In this document: positions 7,496 through 53,117 of the stretch, one piece after another
How the letters are laid out: each line of letters starts with the position of its first letter
How positions within the stretch are numbered: the stretch's first letter is position 1
Assembly: GCA_014686905.1 (NCBI GenBank)
Contig: GCA_014686905.1_4093.1
Direction: 5' to 3' (one strand)
Source: a phage
DNA length: 64,000 bases
Translations under genes and position numbers: made by a program
The notes under the pieces: model-generated
Told to the model about the DNA's origin: nothing
Databases searched by the model: none
The model's input: the letters and a program-made list of their open reading frames with translations, nothing else

Positions 7496-7534
7496 TGACA
7501 TTGCCCAGATAGTACTTTATAATAGACTCTAACT
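7496..7534 (+). promoter_or_regulatory. sigma70-like promoter
   Basis: TTGACA 7506-7511, 17-bp spacer, TATAAT 7529-7534. Confidence 0.55.
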
Positions 7535-7567
7535 TGTAGTACTAACTCAACTAATAGGATGTATACC

Positions 7568-7963
7568 ATGATTACTAAATTCTACGCTACCCGTGAAGCT
7601 GCCCGTATTGTTGCACGCGAGGAAGGAGCAGCATTTAAAGACATGGGCAAAGATGCACCGAAAGGTCAACGCTGGGCCGTACAGTTCAAAGAAATCTCTG
7701 ATATCGTGAATTCACCGGAGCCAGTACTAACAGCAGCAGAACTAAAACGAGCGGATTTACTGGCGGCAGTACTTAACGCACAAGATGAATTTATCGCTGA
7801 TTCTGATATCAAAGTACAGACAAACCATACCGCTTGGACTCACGCGGATCACCTGGCAAACCTTAAGCGTCCAAGTGAACTGGTACGCAACCAGAAAGAG
7901 ATCCGACACGACCGTAAGGGTAATCGTGTAACAGTATACAGTAAACGCCGCCAGGTTATCTAA
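7568..7963 (+). CDS. hypothetical protein (131 aa)
   Basis: RBS AGGA then ATG 7568 (alternative start 7559). Confidence 0.6.
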   Translation: MITKFYATREAARIVAREEGAAFKDMGKDAPKGQRWAVQFKEISDIVNSPEPVLTAAELKRADLLAAVLNAQDEFIADSDIKVQTNHTAWTHADHLANLKRPSELVRNQKEIRHDRKGNRVTVYSKRRQVI

Positions 7964-7985
7964 TAACTTGCAGTACTAACAACAC

Positions 7986-8010
7986 GGCGGGATCAGTTCC
8001 CGCCTTTTTT
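7986..8010 (+). terminator. rho-independent terminator
   Basis: hairpin GGCGGGA-TCAG-TTCCCGCC followed by TTTTTT. Confidence 0.75.
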
Positions 8011-8025
8011 ATAGGATAAACTAAA

Positions 8026-8280
8026 ATGATTAAGGTACAACTATCTAAAGATAATATCTTGCGGGTACACTATAAAGCACCACAGAGAATCATCACAAAG
8101 GCCGTACAGCTTGCTAATGAGTTTATTAATGGTAACCTATTACCAAGGAAGTTAAGCAACGGAAAACTGCGTGTAATCGATGTAGACACTAACAACAGAA
8201 TAGTAATAGAGAACACAGGAAAGATAAACCTTTATGAACATCAACAATATAATAAGAAAATAAAACTAATATCACGTTGA
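8026..8280 (+). CDS. hypothetical basic protein (84 aa)
   Basis: RBS AGGA, ATG 8026. Confidence 0.55.
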   Translation: MIKVQLSKDNILRVHYKAPQRIITKAVQLANEFINGNLLPRKLSNGKLRVIDVDTNNRIVIENTGKINLYEHQQYNKKIKLISR

Positions 8281-12302: not shown

Positions 12303-12370
12303 AAAGTACTTGCATAGTACTTAGAATCAAGTATAATGTTTTACATAGAGAGGGGGAAATGGTTCTCCCT
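12301..12370 (+). promoter_or_regulatory. sigma70-like early promoter plus 5' leader stem-loop
   Basis: TTGCAT 12309-12314, TATAAT 12331-12336; hairpin 12347-12370. Confidence 0.6.
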
Positions 12371-12391
12371 CCTAAATTAAGGAGTTTTATC

Positions 12392-12793
12392 ATGACCTTC
12401 TCAATCAATTCCTTCGCTGACGTTTTAGTACTGGCTCGGACTTTTGGTAAAGATGCACTGGAGTACGCTGTAAGTAATGGTACTATCCAACCGGAACAGT
12501 GCCGCATCATTGGAAACTGCAAACGTTGGGCGGTATCCAATACTATTGCACTGGAAAACTTCCACGATGGCAACAATGAATATTCTGTTGATGTAGTATT
12601 CGAAGCCGTTGATCTCGGCGGTATCTATAATACTAACCTGAATGATGTGCGTATCGTTCGCACGGGGTTCGGTGCTTATGATGTATCTATCCGTGAAGCT
12701 ATGGACACCGGATACATTAGCAAGGACTTACTTGCTCACATCATGCAGCTGTGTACGGAACGTAACGAAGCACGCACTATCTTAGGACTGTAA
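12392..12793 (+). CDS. hypothetical protein (133 aa)
   Basis: RBS AAGGAG, ATG 12392 (internal Met of track ORF 12359..12793). Confidence 0.6.
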   Translation: MTFSINSFADVLVLARTFGKDALEYAVSNGTIQPEQCRIIGNCKRWAVSNTIALENFHDGNNEYSVDVVFEAVDLGGIYNTNLNDVRIVRTGFGAYDVSIREAMDTGYISKDLLAHIMQLCTERNEARTILGL

Positions 12794-12817
12794 GCGTTAC
12801 ACATCACCAAACATCAT

Positions 12818-12840
12818 AGGCCGCCTTGTAGCGGCCTTAA
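12818..12840 (+). terminator. putative intrinsic terminator
   Basis: hairpin AGGCCGC-CTTGTA-GCGGCCT; weak T-tract. Confidence 0.4.
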
Positions 12841-12861
12841 CTATATCAGGAGTACATACAC

Positions 12862-13071
12862 ATGATCTATACAGTATACAGCGTTCTAGGCACTATTGCA
12901 GGCGTACATGATAACGTCGATAGTGCTATGCGTACAGTACTGCAACAGGTTCCACTAAAGCCTAAGACCATTAAGCAGATGACAGCACGACTAACCAGGG
13001 CGACCGATGGCGTGGAAGTATGGCAGGACTACGGGGATACACAGATAATCGTTAGCGTAACGAAGGATTAA
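12862..13071 (+). CDS. hypothetical protein (69 aa)
   Basis: RBS AGGAG, ATG 12862. Confidence 0.5.
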   Translation: MIYTVYSVLGTIAGVHDNVDSAMRTVLQQVPLKPKTIKQMTARLTRATDGVEVWQDYGDTQIIVSVTKD

Positions 13072-20381: not shown

Positions 20382-20440
20382 CTTGACAGTACTTTTCATT
20401 ACTGATATAGTACACTAACGTTAATCATAGGGTAAAAATT

Positions 20441-28303: not shown

Positions 28304-28500
28304 AGACGTTTCATTTTGACAGGCCGCAGGGGGGGTCAAAAAAATTTCCGCTGAAAAACATGCTAAGGTATATGTTTAATATAAAGTTTTATATTGTGTT
28401 TTTCAGAGTACAGTTCATGTTTCCTGAAACAAAAAATACCCCGCCGCCGAACGTTCTCCTTATATTGGGGTTTACCTTATTAATTATAGTAGAGATTAAG

Positions 28501-50991: not shown

Positions 50992-51026
50992 AAAGGACGG
51001 GATTTGTTATCTCGTCCTTTTTTTGT
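50992..51026 (+). terminator. rho-independent terminator
   Basis: hairpin GGACG...CGTCC followed by TTTTTTTT. Confidence 0.7.
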
Positions 51027-51036
51027 CTGGAGATGT

Positions 51037-51891
51037 ATGAAACTTTATCTAATCGTTGACTACAATAAGGATTATGCTGGTAACTTCACCGAAGATTCGG
51101 ATGGATATTGCACATCGACTAATGTCAATGTACGTAGCAGTAGTGCTCATGAACATGAATCTTGTAAAAATCTAAAAGATTTTATCGCATACCGAGCATT
51201 TGAAAAGAACTTCTGCCGCAGTAGATATTCGAAGTTTGAGTACCCGTTAATTGATGTTCCTGATGATTTAATGTTCCAGTTAATGCTAACTGGAGTTCAA
51301 GATTATGATTACATAGCATATAATCATATTACTAAGAAAATTTATATTGGTACATCATCACATGACACTTCTATGTATGCATCATGCCCAGATGATCGAA
51401 TGAATGATAGAAAATCATACTATAGTGGATCAGTTGGTTTAAATGATTCATTAAATAAAAATATATTCTTTGAGTATGTTTATGATTACCATCATGAGAA
51501 AAAAGAACGTGAAGATTACTGTATAGCAATTGATAGTACTAATGGTTATGAAGACGTGAAAGAAGCACTTATGCCGTACATTATTGAAAAGTACTACAAA
51601 GATTTTCAGTACTGTAGTAATTTTCTAATCAGAAATTCTATTATAATCGGTCGCCAATCTAGTGCATACTCTCAGTACTATAATGATTCACCAGTAGCAT
51701 CGGCAAATGAAATGTGTGATATTTTACAAATTCCACGTGAAGATATGGCATTCATTTTTACATCTTTTATTGAAGATGATGAGTTGTATATTAAAAATAA
51801 ACACCGTTTCATGCCAAGCAAGATTGAGGTTATTCGAAGTTTTAGTGTTGATATACTAACAAATTTCACAGAAAAAACCGAATATAACTGA
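51037..51891 (+). CDS. hypothetical protein (284 aa), possible distant FQxS relative
   Basis: RBS GGAGA, ATG 51037; motif DDLMFQLMLTGV. Confidence 0.5.
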   Translation: MKLYLIVDYNKDYAGNFTEDSDGYCTSTNVNVRSSSAHEHESCKNLKDFIAYRAFEKNFCRSRYSKFEYPLIDVPDDLMFQLMLTGVQDYDYIAYNHITKKIYIGTSSHDTSMYASCPDDRMNDRKSYYSGSVGLNDSLNKNIFFEYVYDYHHEKKEREDYCIAIDSTNGYEDVKEALMPYIIEKYYKDFQYCSNFLIRNSIIIGRQSSAYSQYYNDSPVASANEMCDILQIPREDMAFIFTSFIEDDELYIKNKHRFMPSKIEVIRSFSVDILTNFTEKTEYN

Positions 51892-51920
51892 GACAAATGA
51901 TAAGTTAATGATATAATATA

Positions 51921-51953
51921 AGGTGACAACATAATATGTTGGTCACCTTTTTT
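51921..51953 (+). terminator. rho-independent terminator
   Basis: hairpin AGGTGACAACAT-AAT-ATGTTGGTCACCT followed by TTTTTT. Confidence 0.8.
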
Positions 51954-52496
51954 AATCCTGAAAGGTTCCCATAAGGAAATGATTAAAAGCCTAATCCACT
52001 CGAAAATGTAGAGGGTAGATGAGTAGTCCTTTCAGTACGAACAGCAGATGAAACCCGTTAGATGATGGCATAGTTTGAACCACTCACGGCAATGCGGCTG
52101 TATAAAGAACTCCAATAGGATAAAGAGAGTTCCTCGATAGACATATAAGGATCGCACCTTACCAATTATCTAAGGGAGATTTCATAAGAAATATGCGGTC
52201 GGAATTATACAATATAGTTGCGTCCAAATTTTGTGAAATCAAATACAAGTACTGGTCATATGGTATTTGTATTATGTGTCGGGATGTTTAAGACCGACGA
52301 CCGTTGCTACAAGAACCGCGATAGAGAGAAACAGAGCAACCCGCTTTCGTCTCGTAAGAGAATTCGTGATATGAACTATGTGAAGGCCACCAGCGTCAAA
52401 TTTTTTTGTTCTTTCCCCTGCGGGGGGGGGATGAAATATGCTCAAGCAAACCCCGTCAATATTAATTAAAAGAAAATAGTACTTGTAGAATTAGAC
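51954..52496. other. ORF-poor, relatively GC-rich island with G9 homopolymer
   Basis: ~540 bp without RBS-led ORF between strong terminator and next promoter; GGGGGGGGG at 52418-52426. Confidence 0.5.
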
Positions 52497-52571
52497 ATGC
52501 GTAGCATGATAATTCTACTGATGTTGATGCAATCAACGTCACGTATATTCATTGATGTTTCCATAGGAATA

Positions 52572-53117
52572 ATGATGGCATTTATTAGAAAAGAAAAAAC
52601 TGTTACTTATAAAACTTTGAATTTTGATGATTGCATTAATCAATCACAAGACGAAGATATCTTTACTGGATATGTGGTTATTAAAGAAAAAGGATGCATT
52701 TCTTATATAAAGGAATTACAAAATGGAATTGAAGTGACTTCAGTTAAATTACTTCCTACTCAAAAACCAACAATATCAAAAGCCCAGTATGGTAATTATT
52801 TTGAAGAAAGATATAGTAATAATTCAATAAGTGTTAAGGCTCATATTATTAAAGGAGAACTAGAAGGAGAATATAGAAAATACAACCCACAAGGAAAATG
52901 TGTTTGGGTTAAATACTTCAATTCAGGATATGATGTAACATCTGAAATTATAGAATTCTTGGGTTTAAAATGTACCCCTGAGACTATTCATGATTACAAG
53001 TTCAATACTGAAGAAGAGTTTAATCTGATGATGCGTTACGGTTCACATTTTAAATTTTTATATGAATATAACATTGACAGTAGTACTTTTGATAAGATAG
53101 TACACAACTGTCTCTAA
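52572..53117 (+). CDS. hypothetical protein (~181 aa)
   Basis: RBS AGGAA then tandem ATGs 52572/52575; track start 52497 lies too close to promoter. Confidence 0.5.
   Translation: MMAFIRKEKTVTYKTLNFDDCINQSQDEDIFTGYVVIKEKGCISYIKELQNGIEVTSVKLLPTQKPTISKAQYGNYFEERYSNNSISVKAHIIKGELEGEYRKYNPQGKCVWVKYFNSGYDVTSEIIEFLGLKCTPETIHDYKFNTEEEFNLMMRYGSHFKFLYEYNIDSSTFDKIVHNCL

What the first reader, a model, noticed from the sequence alone, without database searches (positions are those of the whole stretch)
51954..52496. ORF-free, relatively GC-rich island with a G9 tract
About 540 bp between a strong terminator (51921-51953) and the next promoter have no RBS-led ORF, look more GC-rich than the flanks, and end with CCCCTGCGGGGGGGGG (G9 at 52418-52426). 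This could be a structured non-coding RNA, an intron-like or horizontally acquired remnant, or a slippage-prone contingency tract.
Basis: seen in the sequence. Interest (0 to 1): 0.55.

Follow-up and report, generated by a model that had tools for sequence, protein, structure and literature searches.

The report
Structured RNA gene in jumbo phage
The gene-free stretch is a gene for a large, intricately folded non-coding RNA not found in Rfam or the searched literature; giant (~350 kb) enterobacterial phages keep four or five evenly spaced copies and small bacterial chromosomal islands also carry it, and the G run is one strand of a conserved hairpin, not a mutational switch.

Summary
The window is an Asteriusvirus jumbo phage, about 99% identical to Escherichia phage 121Q. 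The ORF-free, mildly GC-rich interval is real. The G9 run lies at 52422-52430, 4 nt from the stated position.

The interval is one of four paralogous units of about 0.5 kb in 121Q-type phages. GAP32, CBB, BF, Yen9-04 and XbC2 have five. Each unit has an extended -10 sigma-70 promoter, a core of about 440 nt and a conserved 3' tail.

Across 48 distinct copies (mean identity 66%), 86 proposed base pairs in 17 helices, several of them pseudoknotted, are 94% paired. Sixty of the 86 show compensatory changes. G.U outnumbers A.C 277 to 70, so the plus strand is the RNA.

No Rfam family matches and I found no paper describing it. The G tract is the 3' strand of a hairpin present in every copy. It is G6 in 88 of 105 instances and G9 only here, so it is not a contingency tract.

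The copies are evenly spaced (P about 0.002-0.02). The whole unit also occurs beside integrases in Serratia, Silvania and E. coli islands. My best guess, which is inference only, is a position-linked origin or primer RNA. A trans-acting ornate RNA is nearly as likely.

The parts
51890..51917 (+). Sigma-70-type promoter of the RNA gene: -35 GAGACA (51890-51895), 16-nt spacer, TG-extended -10 TGATATAAT (51909-51917). It overlaps the stop codon of the upstream ORF (51004-51891).
   Evidence: Promoter scan gives 10 of 12 matches with TG. TGNTATAAT sits at the same place upstream of the other copies, of the RaK2 copy and of the E. coli island copy.
51920..51953 (+). It starts at about the expected transcription start, so it is probably the 5'-terminal stem-loop of the RNA and possibly also the terminator of the upstream gene.
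   Evidence: Fold -13.5 kcal/mol, z -4.8. Hairpin plus U tract directly after the -10 is also present in three other paralogue groups (columns 1-70).
51958..52161 (+). 5' domain of the RNA. Helices: H1 51958-65/52028-35; H3 51991-93/52016-18; H4 52023-25/52036-38 (pseudoknot with H1); H5 52041-45/52097-101; H6 52055-58/52086-89; H8 52092-94/52142-44 (pseudoknot); H9 52107-13/52126-32; H10 52146-49/52158-61. Invariant joining strands lie between them.
   Evidence: Per-pair counts on 48 copies. For example H1 pair 51961-52032 is AU 26, CG 8, UA 6, UG 4, GC 2. H4, H5 and H8 are 100% paired with compensatory changes.
52162..52241 (+). Variable central module containing UACAAUAUAGUUGCGUCCAAAUUUUG. 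It is absent from some paralogues and is inserted into hairpin H16 in others.
   Evidence: Alignment A2, columns 340-430 and 545-590; E. coli island copy.
52242..52375 (+). 3' domain. H11 hairpin 52242-53/52262-73; its loop 52255-61 pairs with 52369-75 (PK1); H12 52277-79/52297-99; H13 52303-07/52336-40; H14 52317-21/52364-68; H15 52324-28/52344-48 (H13, H14 and H15 are mutually pseudoknotted); H16 52351-53/52358-60 with a GUAA loop. Contains the near-invariant GAUAGAGAGAAACAGAGCAACCCGCUUUCG.
   Evidence: H13-H15 are 100% paired, with up to 25 of 48 sequences changed on both sides. PK1 pair 52257-52373 is UA 21, CG 19, GC 7.
52394..52399 (+). Box 1, CGUCAA (within GCCACCAGCGUCAA). It is the first of two direct-repeat boxes.
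   Evidence: The boxes change in concert: CGTCAG in both, CGTCAA in both, or CTTCAA in both in RaK2.
52400..52409 (+). U-rich linker. In most other paralogue groups an intrinsic-terminator-like hairpin plus U tract sits at this position.
52410..52434 (+). Conserved 3' hairpin: a pyrimidine-rich 5' arm (52410-52418), a loop, then the G tract (G9 52422-52430) plus AUGA as the 3' arm.
   Evidence: Folds at -11 to -20 kcal/mol in all but one of the 48 copies tested (the anchor motif was not located in one). This copy is -16.2 kcal/mol against -12.7 for 121Q with G6. The 5' arm varies C to U opposite invariant G (helix 17), which fits an RNA hairpin but not a DNA palindrome.
52446..52459 (+). GCAAACCCCGUCAA with box 2, CGUCAA, at 52454-52459. 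This is the last conserved block of the unit.
   Evidence: In the 121Q genome chunks plus this window (which stands in for ~140.9-204.9 kb), AAAYCYCGTCAR occurs only at the four RNA loci; GGGGGGATGA matches at three of them, because copy B reads GGGGGGAAGA.

Best explanation
Identity (about 0.9 confident; the fold, strand and lack of coding are shown, transcription itself is inferred). The interval is the body of a stand-alone gene for a highly structured non-coding RNA of about 0.5 kb. It is one of four paralogues in 121Q-type phages and five in related genera. The unit consists of a host-type TG-extended -10 promoter, a 5' stem-loop, a core of about 440 nt with at least 16 helices including several pseudoknots, and a 3' tail. 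The tail holds box 1 (CGUCAR), a U tract or terminator-like hairpin, a pyrimidine/G6 hairpin and box 2 (CGUCAR). The G9 here is a one-off +3 expansion of an otherwise fixed G6.

Mechanism (inferred; about 0.35-0.4 confident). The RNA works at its own locus. Host RNA polymerase transcribes it early in infection. The fold and the conserved tail then let the transcript act as an origin or primer RNA (an R-loop) for the T4-like phage replisome, in the manner of ColE1 RNA II or the T4 oriF/oriG transcripts. This would explain several things: the genome keeps four or five diverged copies that are each conserved; they sit about 45-86 kb apart around the 350-kb genome; nearly all point the same way; the tail beyond the terminator-like hairpin is conserved; and small integrative chromosomal islands carry one complete unit from promoter to tail, possibly to exploit a helper phage's replication machinery.
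For: Family and paralogy: 4 copies in 121Q. Five copies in GAP32, CBB, BF, Yen9-04, XbC2 and uncultivated contigs. 48 distinct near-full-length copies cluster by paralogue group across genera.

Structure: 94.3% of cells paired against 77.6% in shuffles and about 40% when slid. 60 of 86 pairs have two-sided changes. 627 compensatory cells against 169 in shuffles. 0 of 500 shuffles reach the observed value on four of the five measures (1 of 500 on further pair types).

Strand: G.U 277 against A.C 70.

Non-coding.

Promoter.

Tail conservation and concerted box changes.

Even spacing: gaps of 44-86 kb in five 5-copy genomes. P(min gap >= observed) is 0.002-0.02 and P(sd <= observed) is 0.001-0.004. 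For 121Q P is about 0.03-0.05.

Islands: full units (254-402 bits) lie next to integrases in Serratia fonticola (also next to two ParB/RepB-like genes), Serratia sp., Silvania, a MAG, a metagenome contig and E. coli LR-29-1.

The phage carries the parts an R-loop origin would need: T4-type polymerase, primase, gp41-like and UvsW-like helicases and RNase H, as annotated in 121Q.
Against: No transcription, R-loop or replication data exist for any of these phages. No RNA-seq study was found.

The fold has many pseudoknots and long invariant unpaired strands. That is far more elaborate than known primer RNAs need and looks like a ribozyme or RNP scaffold.

Most paralogues have a canonical intrinsic terminator before the G hairpin. 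It would release the RNA rather than leave it hybridised.

Co-orientation is weak evidence. CBB has only 34 of 554 ORFs on the minus strand (PMC5259590), and the 121Q annotation is likewise almost entirely plus-strand. One copy in pEa_SNUABM_12 is inverted.

The five-copy genomes share one ancestral arrangement, so the spacing statistic is essentially a single observation.

Cumulative GC skew shows no change at the locus.

No replication initiator was recognised in the fully viewed E. coli island.
Confidence: 0.4

Rival explanations
1. Trans-acting ornate RNA. The folded RNA leaves its locus and acts as a ribozyme, an RNA-protein scaffold, a self-assembling RNA particle or a decoy in phage-host or phage-island conflict. 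It would be comparable in kind to the phage and prophage RNAs ROOL and GOLLD. The twin CGUCAR boxes would be binding sites for one protein partner. The paralogues would be sub-functionalised.
For: The fold is very complex: 17 helices, several pseudoknots, and blocks of 10-30 nt that never vary. GNRA-type loops occur, for example GUAA in H16 here and GAAA in H2 of GAP32. Most copies have their own promoter plus a terminator. Each paralogue has its own specific loop-partner sequence in PK1: UCAUAU, AUUGCAU, AUCGAAU and AUUGUAU in the four 121Q copies. The RNA lies in the integrase/CI-repressor region of integrated elements, where lysogen-expressed accessory genes usually sit (the last point is general knowledge).
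Against: It does not explain the even spacing, the long-term retention of diverged paralogues at syntenic positions, or the strong conservation of the tail downstream of the terminator-like hairpin. No homology to any Rfam family, including ROOL, GOLLD, OLE, HEARO and RNase P. No partner protein has been identified.
Confidence: 0.35
2. Cis-regulatory leader. A very large riboswitch-like or attenuator element in which the terminator-like hairpin decides read-through into the downstream genes (here gp416, dam and a cytidylyltransferase-like gene).
For: The promoter, structured RNA, terminator and gene order holds for this copy. RNA-gp416-dam synteny is kept in RaK2. No terminator is evident between box 2 and gp416 here.
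Against: 121Q copy D lies between two minus-strand genes. Downstream genes differ among paralogues and in the islands. Copies A and B lack the terminator. About 110 nt or more separate the tail from the next start codon.
Confidence: 0.07
3. Another position-linked role of a strong early transcription unit. Examples are a packaging-motor RNA (phi29 pRNA-like), periodic host-RNAP promoters that pull the long genome into the cell (T7-like entry), or domain boundaries.
For: Even spacing, mostly one orientation and host-type promoters.
Against: A promoter alone would suffice for entry or boundary roles, so these do not explain the conserved fold. There is no similarity to pRNA, because no Rfam family of any kind matched. 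T4-like phages are not known to need either mechanism (general knowledge).
Confidence: 0.08
4. The G tract is a slippage-prone contingency tract (phase variation), or the region is a decaying remnant with no function.
For: G9 here against G6 in 121Q and G17, in sequence that is otherwise identical across this interval apart from the three extra Gs.
Against: G6 is fixed in 88 of 105 instances across genera and in islands. All four close relatives of this copy have G6. The tract is not in a coding region or a promoter spacer. The region is under strong purifying selection with compensatory changes. A single +3 difference in a homopolymer could equally be an assembly or sequencing error.
Confidence: 0.03

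Closest known systems
ColE1/pMB1 RNA II replication primer (general knowledge; Masukata & Tomizawa model)
   Same: A transcript of about 0.5 kb from a sigma-70 promoter. It must fold correctly, and a G-rich segment helps it stay hybridised at the origin, where RNase H makes the primer. Here there is a similar length from promoter to tail (about 540 nt), a conserved G6 tract near the 3' end, and phage-encoded RNase H.
   Different: There is no sequence or structural homology. The fold here is much more elaborate and pseudoknotted. Many copies have a terminator before the G hairpin. An antisense RNA I-like regulator was not looked for. Hybrid formation and priming are untested.
Phage T4 origins oriF(uvsY)/oriG(34): R-loop primers made by host RNA polymerase (general knowledge)
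   Same: T4-related replisome, several origins per genome (about five in T4), and transcripts made by host RNAP. The phage has a UvsW-like helicase, which in T4 removes origin R-loops.
   Different: T4 origin transcripts are short and unstructured and are defined by a promoter plus an unwinding element. Nothing like a conserved 440-nt fold is known there.
ROOL and GOLLD (Rfam RF03087, RF01998): large ornate RNAs of phages and prophages with unknown function
   Same: Similar kind of element: 400-800 nt, many helices and pseudoknots, encoded by phages and integrated elements, own transcription unit, function unknown.
   Different: Neither model matches, even at E<=10. Those RNAs are single-copy, mostly in Firmicutes, and often lie beside tRNA genes. 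This family is enterobacterial, has 4-5 evenly spaced copies per genome, and has the twin-box plus G-hairpin tail.
Bacterial RNase P RNA (Rfam RF00010/RF00011)
   Same: By eye, AGAUGAGUAGUCC and ACAGAGCAACCCGCUUUCG recall conserved regions CR-IV and CR-V of M1 RNA. This is my recollection and only a lead.
   Different: There is no covariance-model hit at E<=10 in nine copies. The order of the blocks differs. Covariation shows CUUUC pairs locally with GAGAG (H15) and GCAAC with GUUGC (H13), not as a P4-type long-range helix.
PA5oct ncRNA001/ncRNA002: abundant unannotated transcripts of a distantly related jumbo phage (PMC7318152)
   Same: ORF-free loci of 236-451 nt in a Rak2-related jumbo phage that are highly transcribed throughout infection.
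   Different: No detectable sequence similarity, even with nhmmer --max.

Membership tests
Any Rfam 15 family (including RNase P, group I/II introns, tmRNA, 6S, ROOL, GOLLD, OLE, HEARO, raiA) | Covariance-model score at or above the family's gathering threshold | tested here: not met
   0 hits in the whole window at gathering. At E<=10 on this copy and on 8 divergent copies, only scattered terminator-like sRNA hits appear outside the core, and no family recurs.
tRNA / tmRNA | ARAGORN-detectable cloverleaf or tmRNA tag | tested here: not met
   No gene found in the window.
Conserved structured ncRNA (generic) | Base pairs maintained by compensatory substitutions beyond shuffled and slid controls | tested here: met
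   60 of 86 pairs have two-sided changes. Covariation score is 0.457 against 0.173 (shuffled) and 0.06-0.09 (slid). 0 of 500 shuffles reach the observed covariation score.
Conserved structured ncRNA (generic) | Strand asymmetry (G.U tolerated, A.C not) and no conserved reading frame | tested here: met
   G.U 277 against A.C 70. No shared ORF among 48 copies.
Conserved structured ncRNA (generic) | Evidence of transcription | not testable with these tools
   There is only a conserved TG-extended -10 promoter and terminators in most copies. No RNA-seq for this clade was found.
RNA-primed replication origin (ColE1 RNA II / T4 R-loop type) | Transcript forms a persistent RNA-DNA hybrid and is processed to a primer at the locus | not testable with these tools
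   Needs DRIP-seq, RNase H mapping and marker-frequency analysis.
RNA-primed replication origin (ColE1 RNA II / T4 R-loop type) | Position-linked distribution of copies consistent with replicating a large genome | tested here: met
   Gaps of 44-86 kb in five 5-copy genomes, P 0.002-0.02. This is effectively one shared ancestral arrangement.
RNA-primed replication origin (ColE1 RNA II / T4 R-loop type) | Compositional (GC-skew) switch at the origin | tested here: not met
   Cumulative GC skew rises monotonically through the locus. The test is weak for phages with several co-oriented origins.
Contingency (phase-variable) homopolymer tract | Tract length varies among close isolates or instances | tested here: not met
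   G6 in 121Q, G17 and two metagenome contigs carrying the same copy. G6 in 88 of 105 instances. G9 only in this window.
Contingency (phase-variable) homopolymer tract | Tract lies in a reading frame or a promoter spacer, so its length switches expression | tested here: not met
   It is the 3' arm of a conserved RNA hairpin in a non-coding unit.
Intrinsic terminator (the hairpin at 51920-51953) | Stable GC-containing stem followed by a U tract, downstream of a gene end | tested here: inconclusive
   The stem (-13.5 kcal/mol) plus U6 is present 29 nt after the stop codon. The simple terminator scan missed it because of a bulge. It lies downstream of the conserved -10, as in three other paralogue groups.

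The most novel reading that the evidence does not exclude
A previously unrecognised class of ribozyme-sized RNA (about 0.5 kb, multiply pseudoknotted) marks and primes four or five evenly spaced replication origins of 350-kb T4-related jumbo phages. Small integrase-bearing islands in E. coli, Serratia and Silvania carry the same unit, possibly as satellites that copy the origin module of jumbo phages to be replicated by the helper.
Probability: 0.3. Interest if true: 0.9.

Novelty: new variant of a known kind. Interest (0 to 1): 0.75.

Why it matters
Large, intricately folded bacterial and phage RNAs are rare, and each class found so far has led to new biology; the examples I have in mind are RNase P, group I/II introns, OLE, HEARO/omega RNA and ROOL/GOLLD. 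This family has unusually strong comparative support. It occurs in cultivable E. coli phages (121Q, PBECO4, G17, phAPEC6) and in E. coli chromosomal islands, so it can be tested directly. Its multi-copy, evenly spaced arrangement is not known for any other RNA class that I am aware of.

If it is an origin RNA, it would answer how 350-kb T4-like genomes start replication. It might also reveal satellites of jumbo phages. If it is trans-acting, it is a new ornate RNA or RNP.

It also has a practical consequence for annotation. Several GenBank records place short hypothetical CDSs over these loci, and these are probably spurious.

Tried and rejected
- **Rfam at gathering and at E<=10.** I ran it on this copy and on 8 divergent copies. 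Nothing recurred.
- **tRNA/tmRNA scan.** None found.
- **RNase P resemblance.** I noticed it by eye. I rejected it on the covariance-model result and on the covariation-supported pairings.
- **Coding potential.** No conserved frame. The 12-codon ATG ORF after the G tract is broken by indels in other copies.
- **Repeats inside the window.** No second copy.
- **Homology to the RNA-seq-supported PA5oct ncRNAs.** None.
- **RNAalifold on the raw MAFFT alignment.** The consensus was messy and I did not use it. I replaced it with a G-test/APC covariation scan plus manual helix definition.
- **Internal guide sequence complementary to the twin CGUCAR boxes.** None was conserved.
- **Tail motifs as a general promoter or operator.** In the 121Q genome AAAYCYCGTCAR and CCATCAKCGTCAA occur only at the four RNA loci, and GGGGGGATGA at three of them.
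- **Plasmids.** No match.
- **Shared protein neighbours between islands and phages.** None found in the loci held.
- **Literature.** Eight searches and six papers read gave no description of this RNA or of origins in this clade. One 2026 preprint (Minerva) could not be opened.

Full report
**What the window is.** The region 51800-52600 is 99.4% identical to Escherichia phage 121Q (Asteriusvirus, 348.5 kb). It lies between 121Q gp415 and gp416, upstream of a Dam methylase and a cytidylyltransferase-like gene. The window covers roughly 140.9-204.9 kb of that genome.

**Checking the observation.**
- The interval has no conserved ORF.
- Its GC content is 40.1% against 33.7% for the window. That is in the top 5% of sliding windows but is not the richest.
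- CCCCTGCGGGGGGGGG is present, but the G9 run is at 52422-52430, 4 nt from the stated coordinates.
- The hairpin at 51920-51953 is real: -13.5 kcal/mol, z -4.8, followed by U6. It sits just downstream of a good sigma-70 site, GAGACA-16 nt-TGATATAAT at 51890-51917.

**It is a member of a multi-copy family.**
- A blastn search showed that a core of about 480 nt is conserved at 66-75% identity in distant jumbo phages (GAP32, CBB, BF, fHe-Yen9-04, XbC2, Munch and others), with 4-5 places per genome. The non-coding interval is more conserved than its coding flanks; for PBECO4 it is 98.2% against 95.8% with the flanks included.
- I fetched the 121Q genome. It has four paralogues, all on the plus strand, at about 90.5, 193.0 (this one), 247.8 and 326.9 kb.
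- Three pattern scans of IMG/VR plus nhmmer gave 60 instances (53 of them near full length), of which 48 are distinct near-full-length copies. Mean pairwise identity is 66% and the minimum is 52%.
- The copies cluster by paralogue group across genera. The duplications therefore predate the genera, and each paralogue has been kept separately.
- Klebsiella phage RaK2 has a more divergent copy in the same syntenic position: ORF445, RNA, ORF446, dam, cytidylyltransferase.

**Anatomy of the unit.**
- A TG-extended -10 promoter, with a GGGACA-like -35 element.
- In this copy and three other paralogue groups, a 5' hairpin plus U tract that begins at about the expected transcription start.
- A core of about 440 nt with long invariant blocks separated by variable hairpins.
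- Box 1, (Y)CGUCAR.
- In most paralogue groups, a canonical intrinsic-terminator-like hairpin. Here there is only a U-rich linker.
- A hairpin whose 3' arm is GGGGGGAUGA and whose 5' arm is a variable pyrimidine tract.
- ACAAAYCYCGUCAR, which contains box 2.

**The fold is real and lies on the plus strand.**
- A G-test/APC covariation scan and per-pair inspection defined 17 helices.
- They include four pseudoknotted sets: H4 across H1; H8 across H5; the H11 loop pairing with 52369-75; and H13, H14 and H15 interleaved.
- On alignment A2 the 86 pairs are 94.3% paired, against 77.6% in shuffles and about 40% when the 3' partners are slid.
- 60 of the 86 pairs have changes on both sides. There are 627 compensatory cells against 169 in shuffles and 63-97 when slid. 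0 of 500 shuffles reach the observed value on four of the five measures, and 1 of 500 on the fifth.
- Several helices are 100% paired with three or four pair types.
- G.U pairs outnumber A.C 277 to 70, which identifies the plus strand as the RNA.

**The G tract.**
- It is the 3' strand of a hairpin that folds at -11 to -20 kcal/mol in all but one of the 48 copies tested; in that one the anchor motif was not located.
- Opposite the invariant Gs, the partner bases switch between C and U (helix 17). That fits an RNA stem and not a DNA palindrome.
- In a regex survey of 105 instances the run is G6 in 88 and G5 in 13. Three apparent G4 counts are artefacts of the pattern. G9 occurs only in this window.
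- 121Q, G17 and two metagenome contigs that carry the same copy all have G6.
- The three extra Gs lengthen the stem by G.U pairs, giving -16.2 against -12.7 kcal/mol.
- The contingency-tract idea is therefore not supported. The G9 is either a recent slip or a homopolymer assembly error.

**The twin boxes.**
- Box 1 and box 2 are identical within a copy and change together between copies. They are CGUCAG in both, CGUCAA in both, or CUUCAA in both in RaK2. There is one exception (L061).
- No complementary internal guide is conserved.
- In the 121Q genome the extended box motifs occur only at the four RNA loci.
- I infer that one sequence-specific partner recognises both boxes.

**Not a known family.**
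- Rfam 15 gives nothing at gathering thresholds, and nothing consistent at E<=10 on nine copies.
- There is no tRNA or tmRNA.
- A by-eye resemblance to RNase P conserved regions is contradicted by the covariance models and by the pairings found.
- The RNA-seq-defined ncRNAs of the related phage PA5oct are not homologous.
- Genome papers on CBB, phAPEC6 and fEgEco12 do not mention the element, and neither do the targeted full-text searches.
- Bulk catalogues such as PMC10690425 may contain unnamed fragments. I could not check that.

**Two clues from outside the phages.**

*Spacing.* Querying with each paralogue gave all coordinates in five 5-copy genomes. For BF they are 30.3, 93.0, 174.5, 258.8 and 335.3 kb of 357 kb. 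Gaps across the five genomes are 44-86 kb. P(min gap >= observed) is 0.002-0.02 and P(sd <= observed) is 0.001-0.004. For 121Q's four copies P is about 0.03-0.05. These genomes share one ancestral layout, so this counts as one observation, but it is a striking one.

*Islands.* A scan of 185,579 species genomes found the complete unit, promoter to box 2, in bacterial chromosomes. Each copy sits inside an AT-rich integrated island.

| Host | Context |
|---|---|
| Serratia fonticola | large serine recombinase, two ParB/RepB-like genes, RNA, duplicated rof |
| Silvania hatchlandensis | serine recombinase, RNA, CI-like repressor |
| Serratia sp. 2723 | serine recombinase, RNA |
| Enterobacteriaceae MAG (L068) | RNA beside a CI-like repressor; no integrase seen in the 8 kb held |
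| Metagenome contig L135 | tyrosine integrase, RNA, CI-like repressor |
| E. coli LR-29-1 | ~10.7-kb island at ffs with an IS3-split integrase, the RNA at 402 bits, and DUF4326/DUF488/DuOB genes |

It is present in 2 of 5,426 complete E. coli genomes and absent from plasmids. A metagenome scan added 68 stretches, mostly from jumbo-phage-like contigs, plus a divergent subgroup.

**Interpretation.**

*Shown by the data:* a conserved, plus-strand, non-coding, highly structured unit, multi-copy in jumbo phages and single-copy in islands.

*Inferred:* transcription from the conserved promoter.

For function I weigh two models.

- **Position-linked origin or primer RNA, about 0.35-0.4.** It is analogous to ColE1 RNA II or T4 R-loop origins. 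It accounts for the copy number, the spacing, the independent retention of diverged paralogues, the conserved tail beyond the terminator, the portability of the whole unit into islands, and its position beside ParB/RepB genes in one island. It does not account well for the ribozyme-like complexity or for the terminators.
- **Trans-acting ornate RNA or RNP, about 0.35.** It accounts for the complexity, but not for the spacing or the tail.

A cis-regulatory leader, other position-linked roles and a contingency tract are minor alternatives.

**Verdict.** The G tract matters as part of a conserved hairpin, not as a switch. The RNA family appears undescribed, has strong comparative support and is open to experiment.

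Noticed in passing
window 12350-12900 and 7500-8150: These are the GC-richest 543-bp windows of the 64 kb (0.44-0.47), richer than the finding itself.
   Followed up: no
window 28329-28335: A G7 run. It is the only other G or C homopolymer of 7 or more in the window.
   Followed up: no
121Q (KM507819) 135,194-137,161 = L005:35194-37161: A gap of about 2 kb with no annotated gene, just upstream of where this window begins. nhmmer found no copy of the RNA there.
   Followed up: partly
L006:47799-47954 (121Q gp516); Yen9-04 g047/g048, g159/g160, g347/g348; 'hypothetical protein x3-7' rows for SHEFM2K, E9.1, JP4, WPEC3/5 and BAU.Micro_ELP-22: Short CDSs annotated on top of the RNA copies in several GenBank records are probably spurious calls inside a non-coding RNA gene.
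   Followed up: partly
window 52205-52235; alignment A2 columns ~385-420 and ~550-590; L140:20230-20262 and 20385-20415: A module of about 30 nt, (U)ACAAUAUAGAUCCGUCCAAAAUUUGAG, sits in the central domain in some paralogues and inside hairpin H16 in others. 121Q copy C and the E. coli island copy have it in both places. It looks like a transposable RNA structural module.
   Followed up: partly
MT939486.1 (Erwinia phage pEa_SNUABM_12) 330,628-331,134: One of its five copies is on the minus strand while the other four are on the plus strand. In sister phages the orthologous copy is on the plus strand. This is a local inversion or an assembly difference.
   Followed up: no
L140:15958-26302 (E. 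coli LR-29-1, NZ_AP027515): An island of about 10.7 kb between ffs and ybaA. It carries an IS3-disrupted tyrosine integrase, the RNA, several unknown ORFs, a DUF4326-DUF488-dual-OB (DuOB) gene trio, a small resolvase and DUF2188. It may be a defence island or a satellite.
   Followed up: partly
L071:4775-5490 (Serratia fonticola GTA-SR07): Two tandem 87-aa ROF (Rho-modulator) ORFs sit at the island boundary. This fits an element that integrates into rof and carries a replacement copy.
   Followed up: no
L089, L094, L099, L116, L118, L126, L127, L138 (metagenome contigs, GC 41-44%): A divergent subgroup that aligns to the family profile only over the 3' domain (profile positions ~286-510, about 100 bits). 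L118 neighbours Thg1-like and DUF6267 genes. L099 neighbours giant BNR/Asp-box proteins.
   Followed up: partly
L044:8568-8634 (IMGVR_UViG_3300045120_000366): It matched the 5'-domain DNA pattern but gave no nhmmer hit to the family. This is a chance match or a very distant relative.
   Followed up: no
window 52209-52237, minus strand: A promoter-like site, TTCACA-17 nt-TATTGT, antisense to the RNA's central module. I did not check whether it is conserved. It would matter for an RNA I-like antisense regulator.
   Followed up: no
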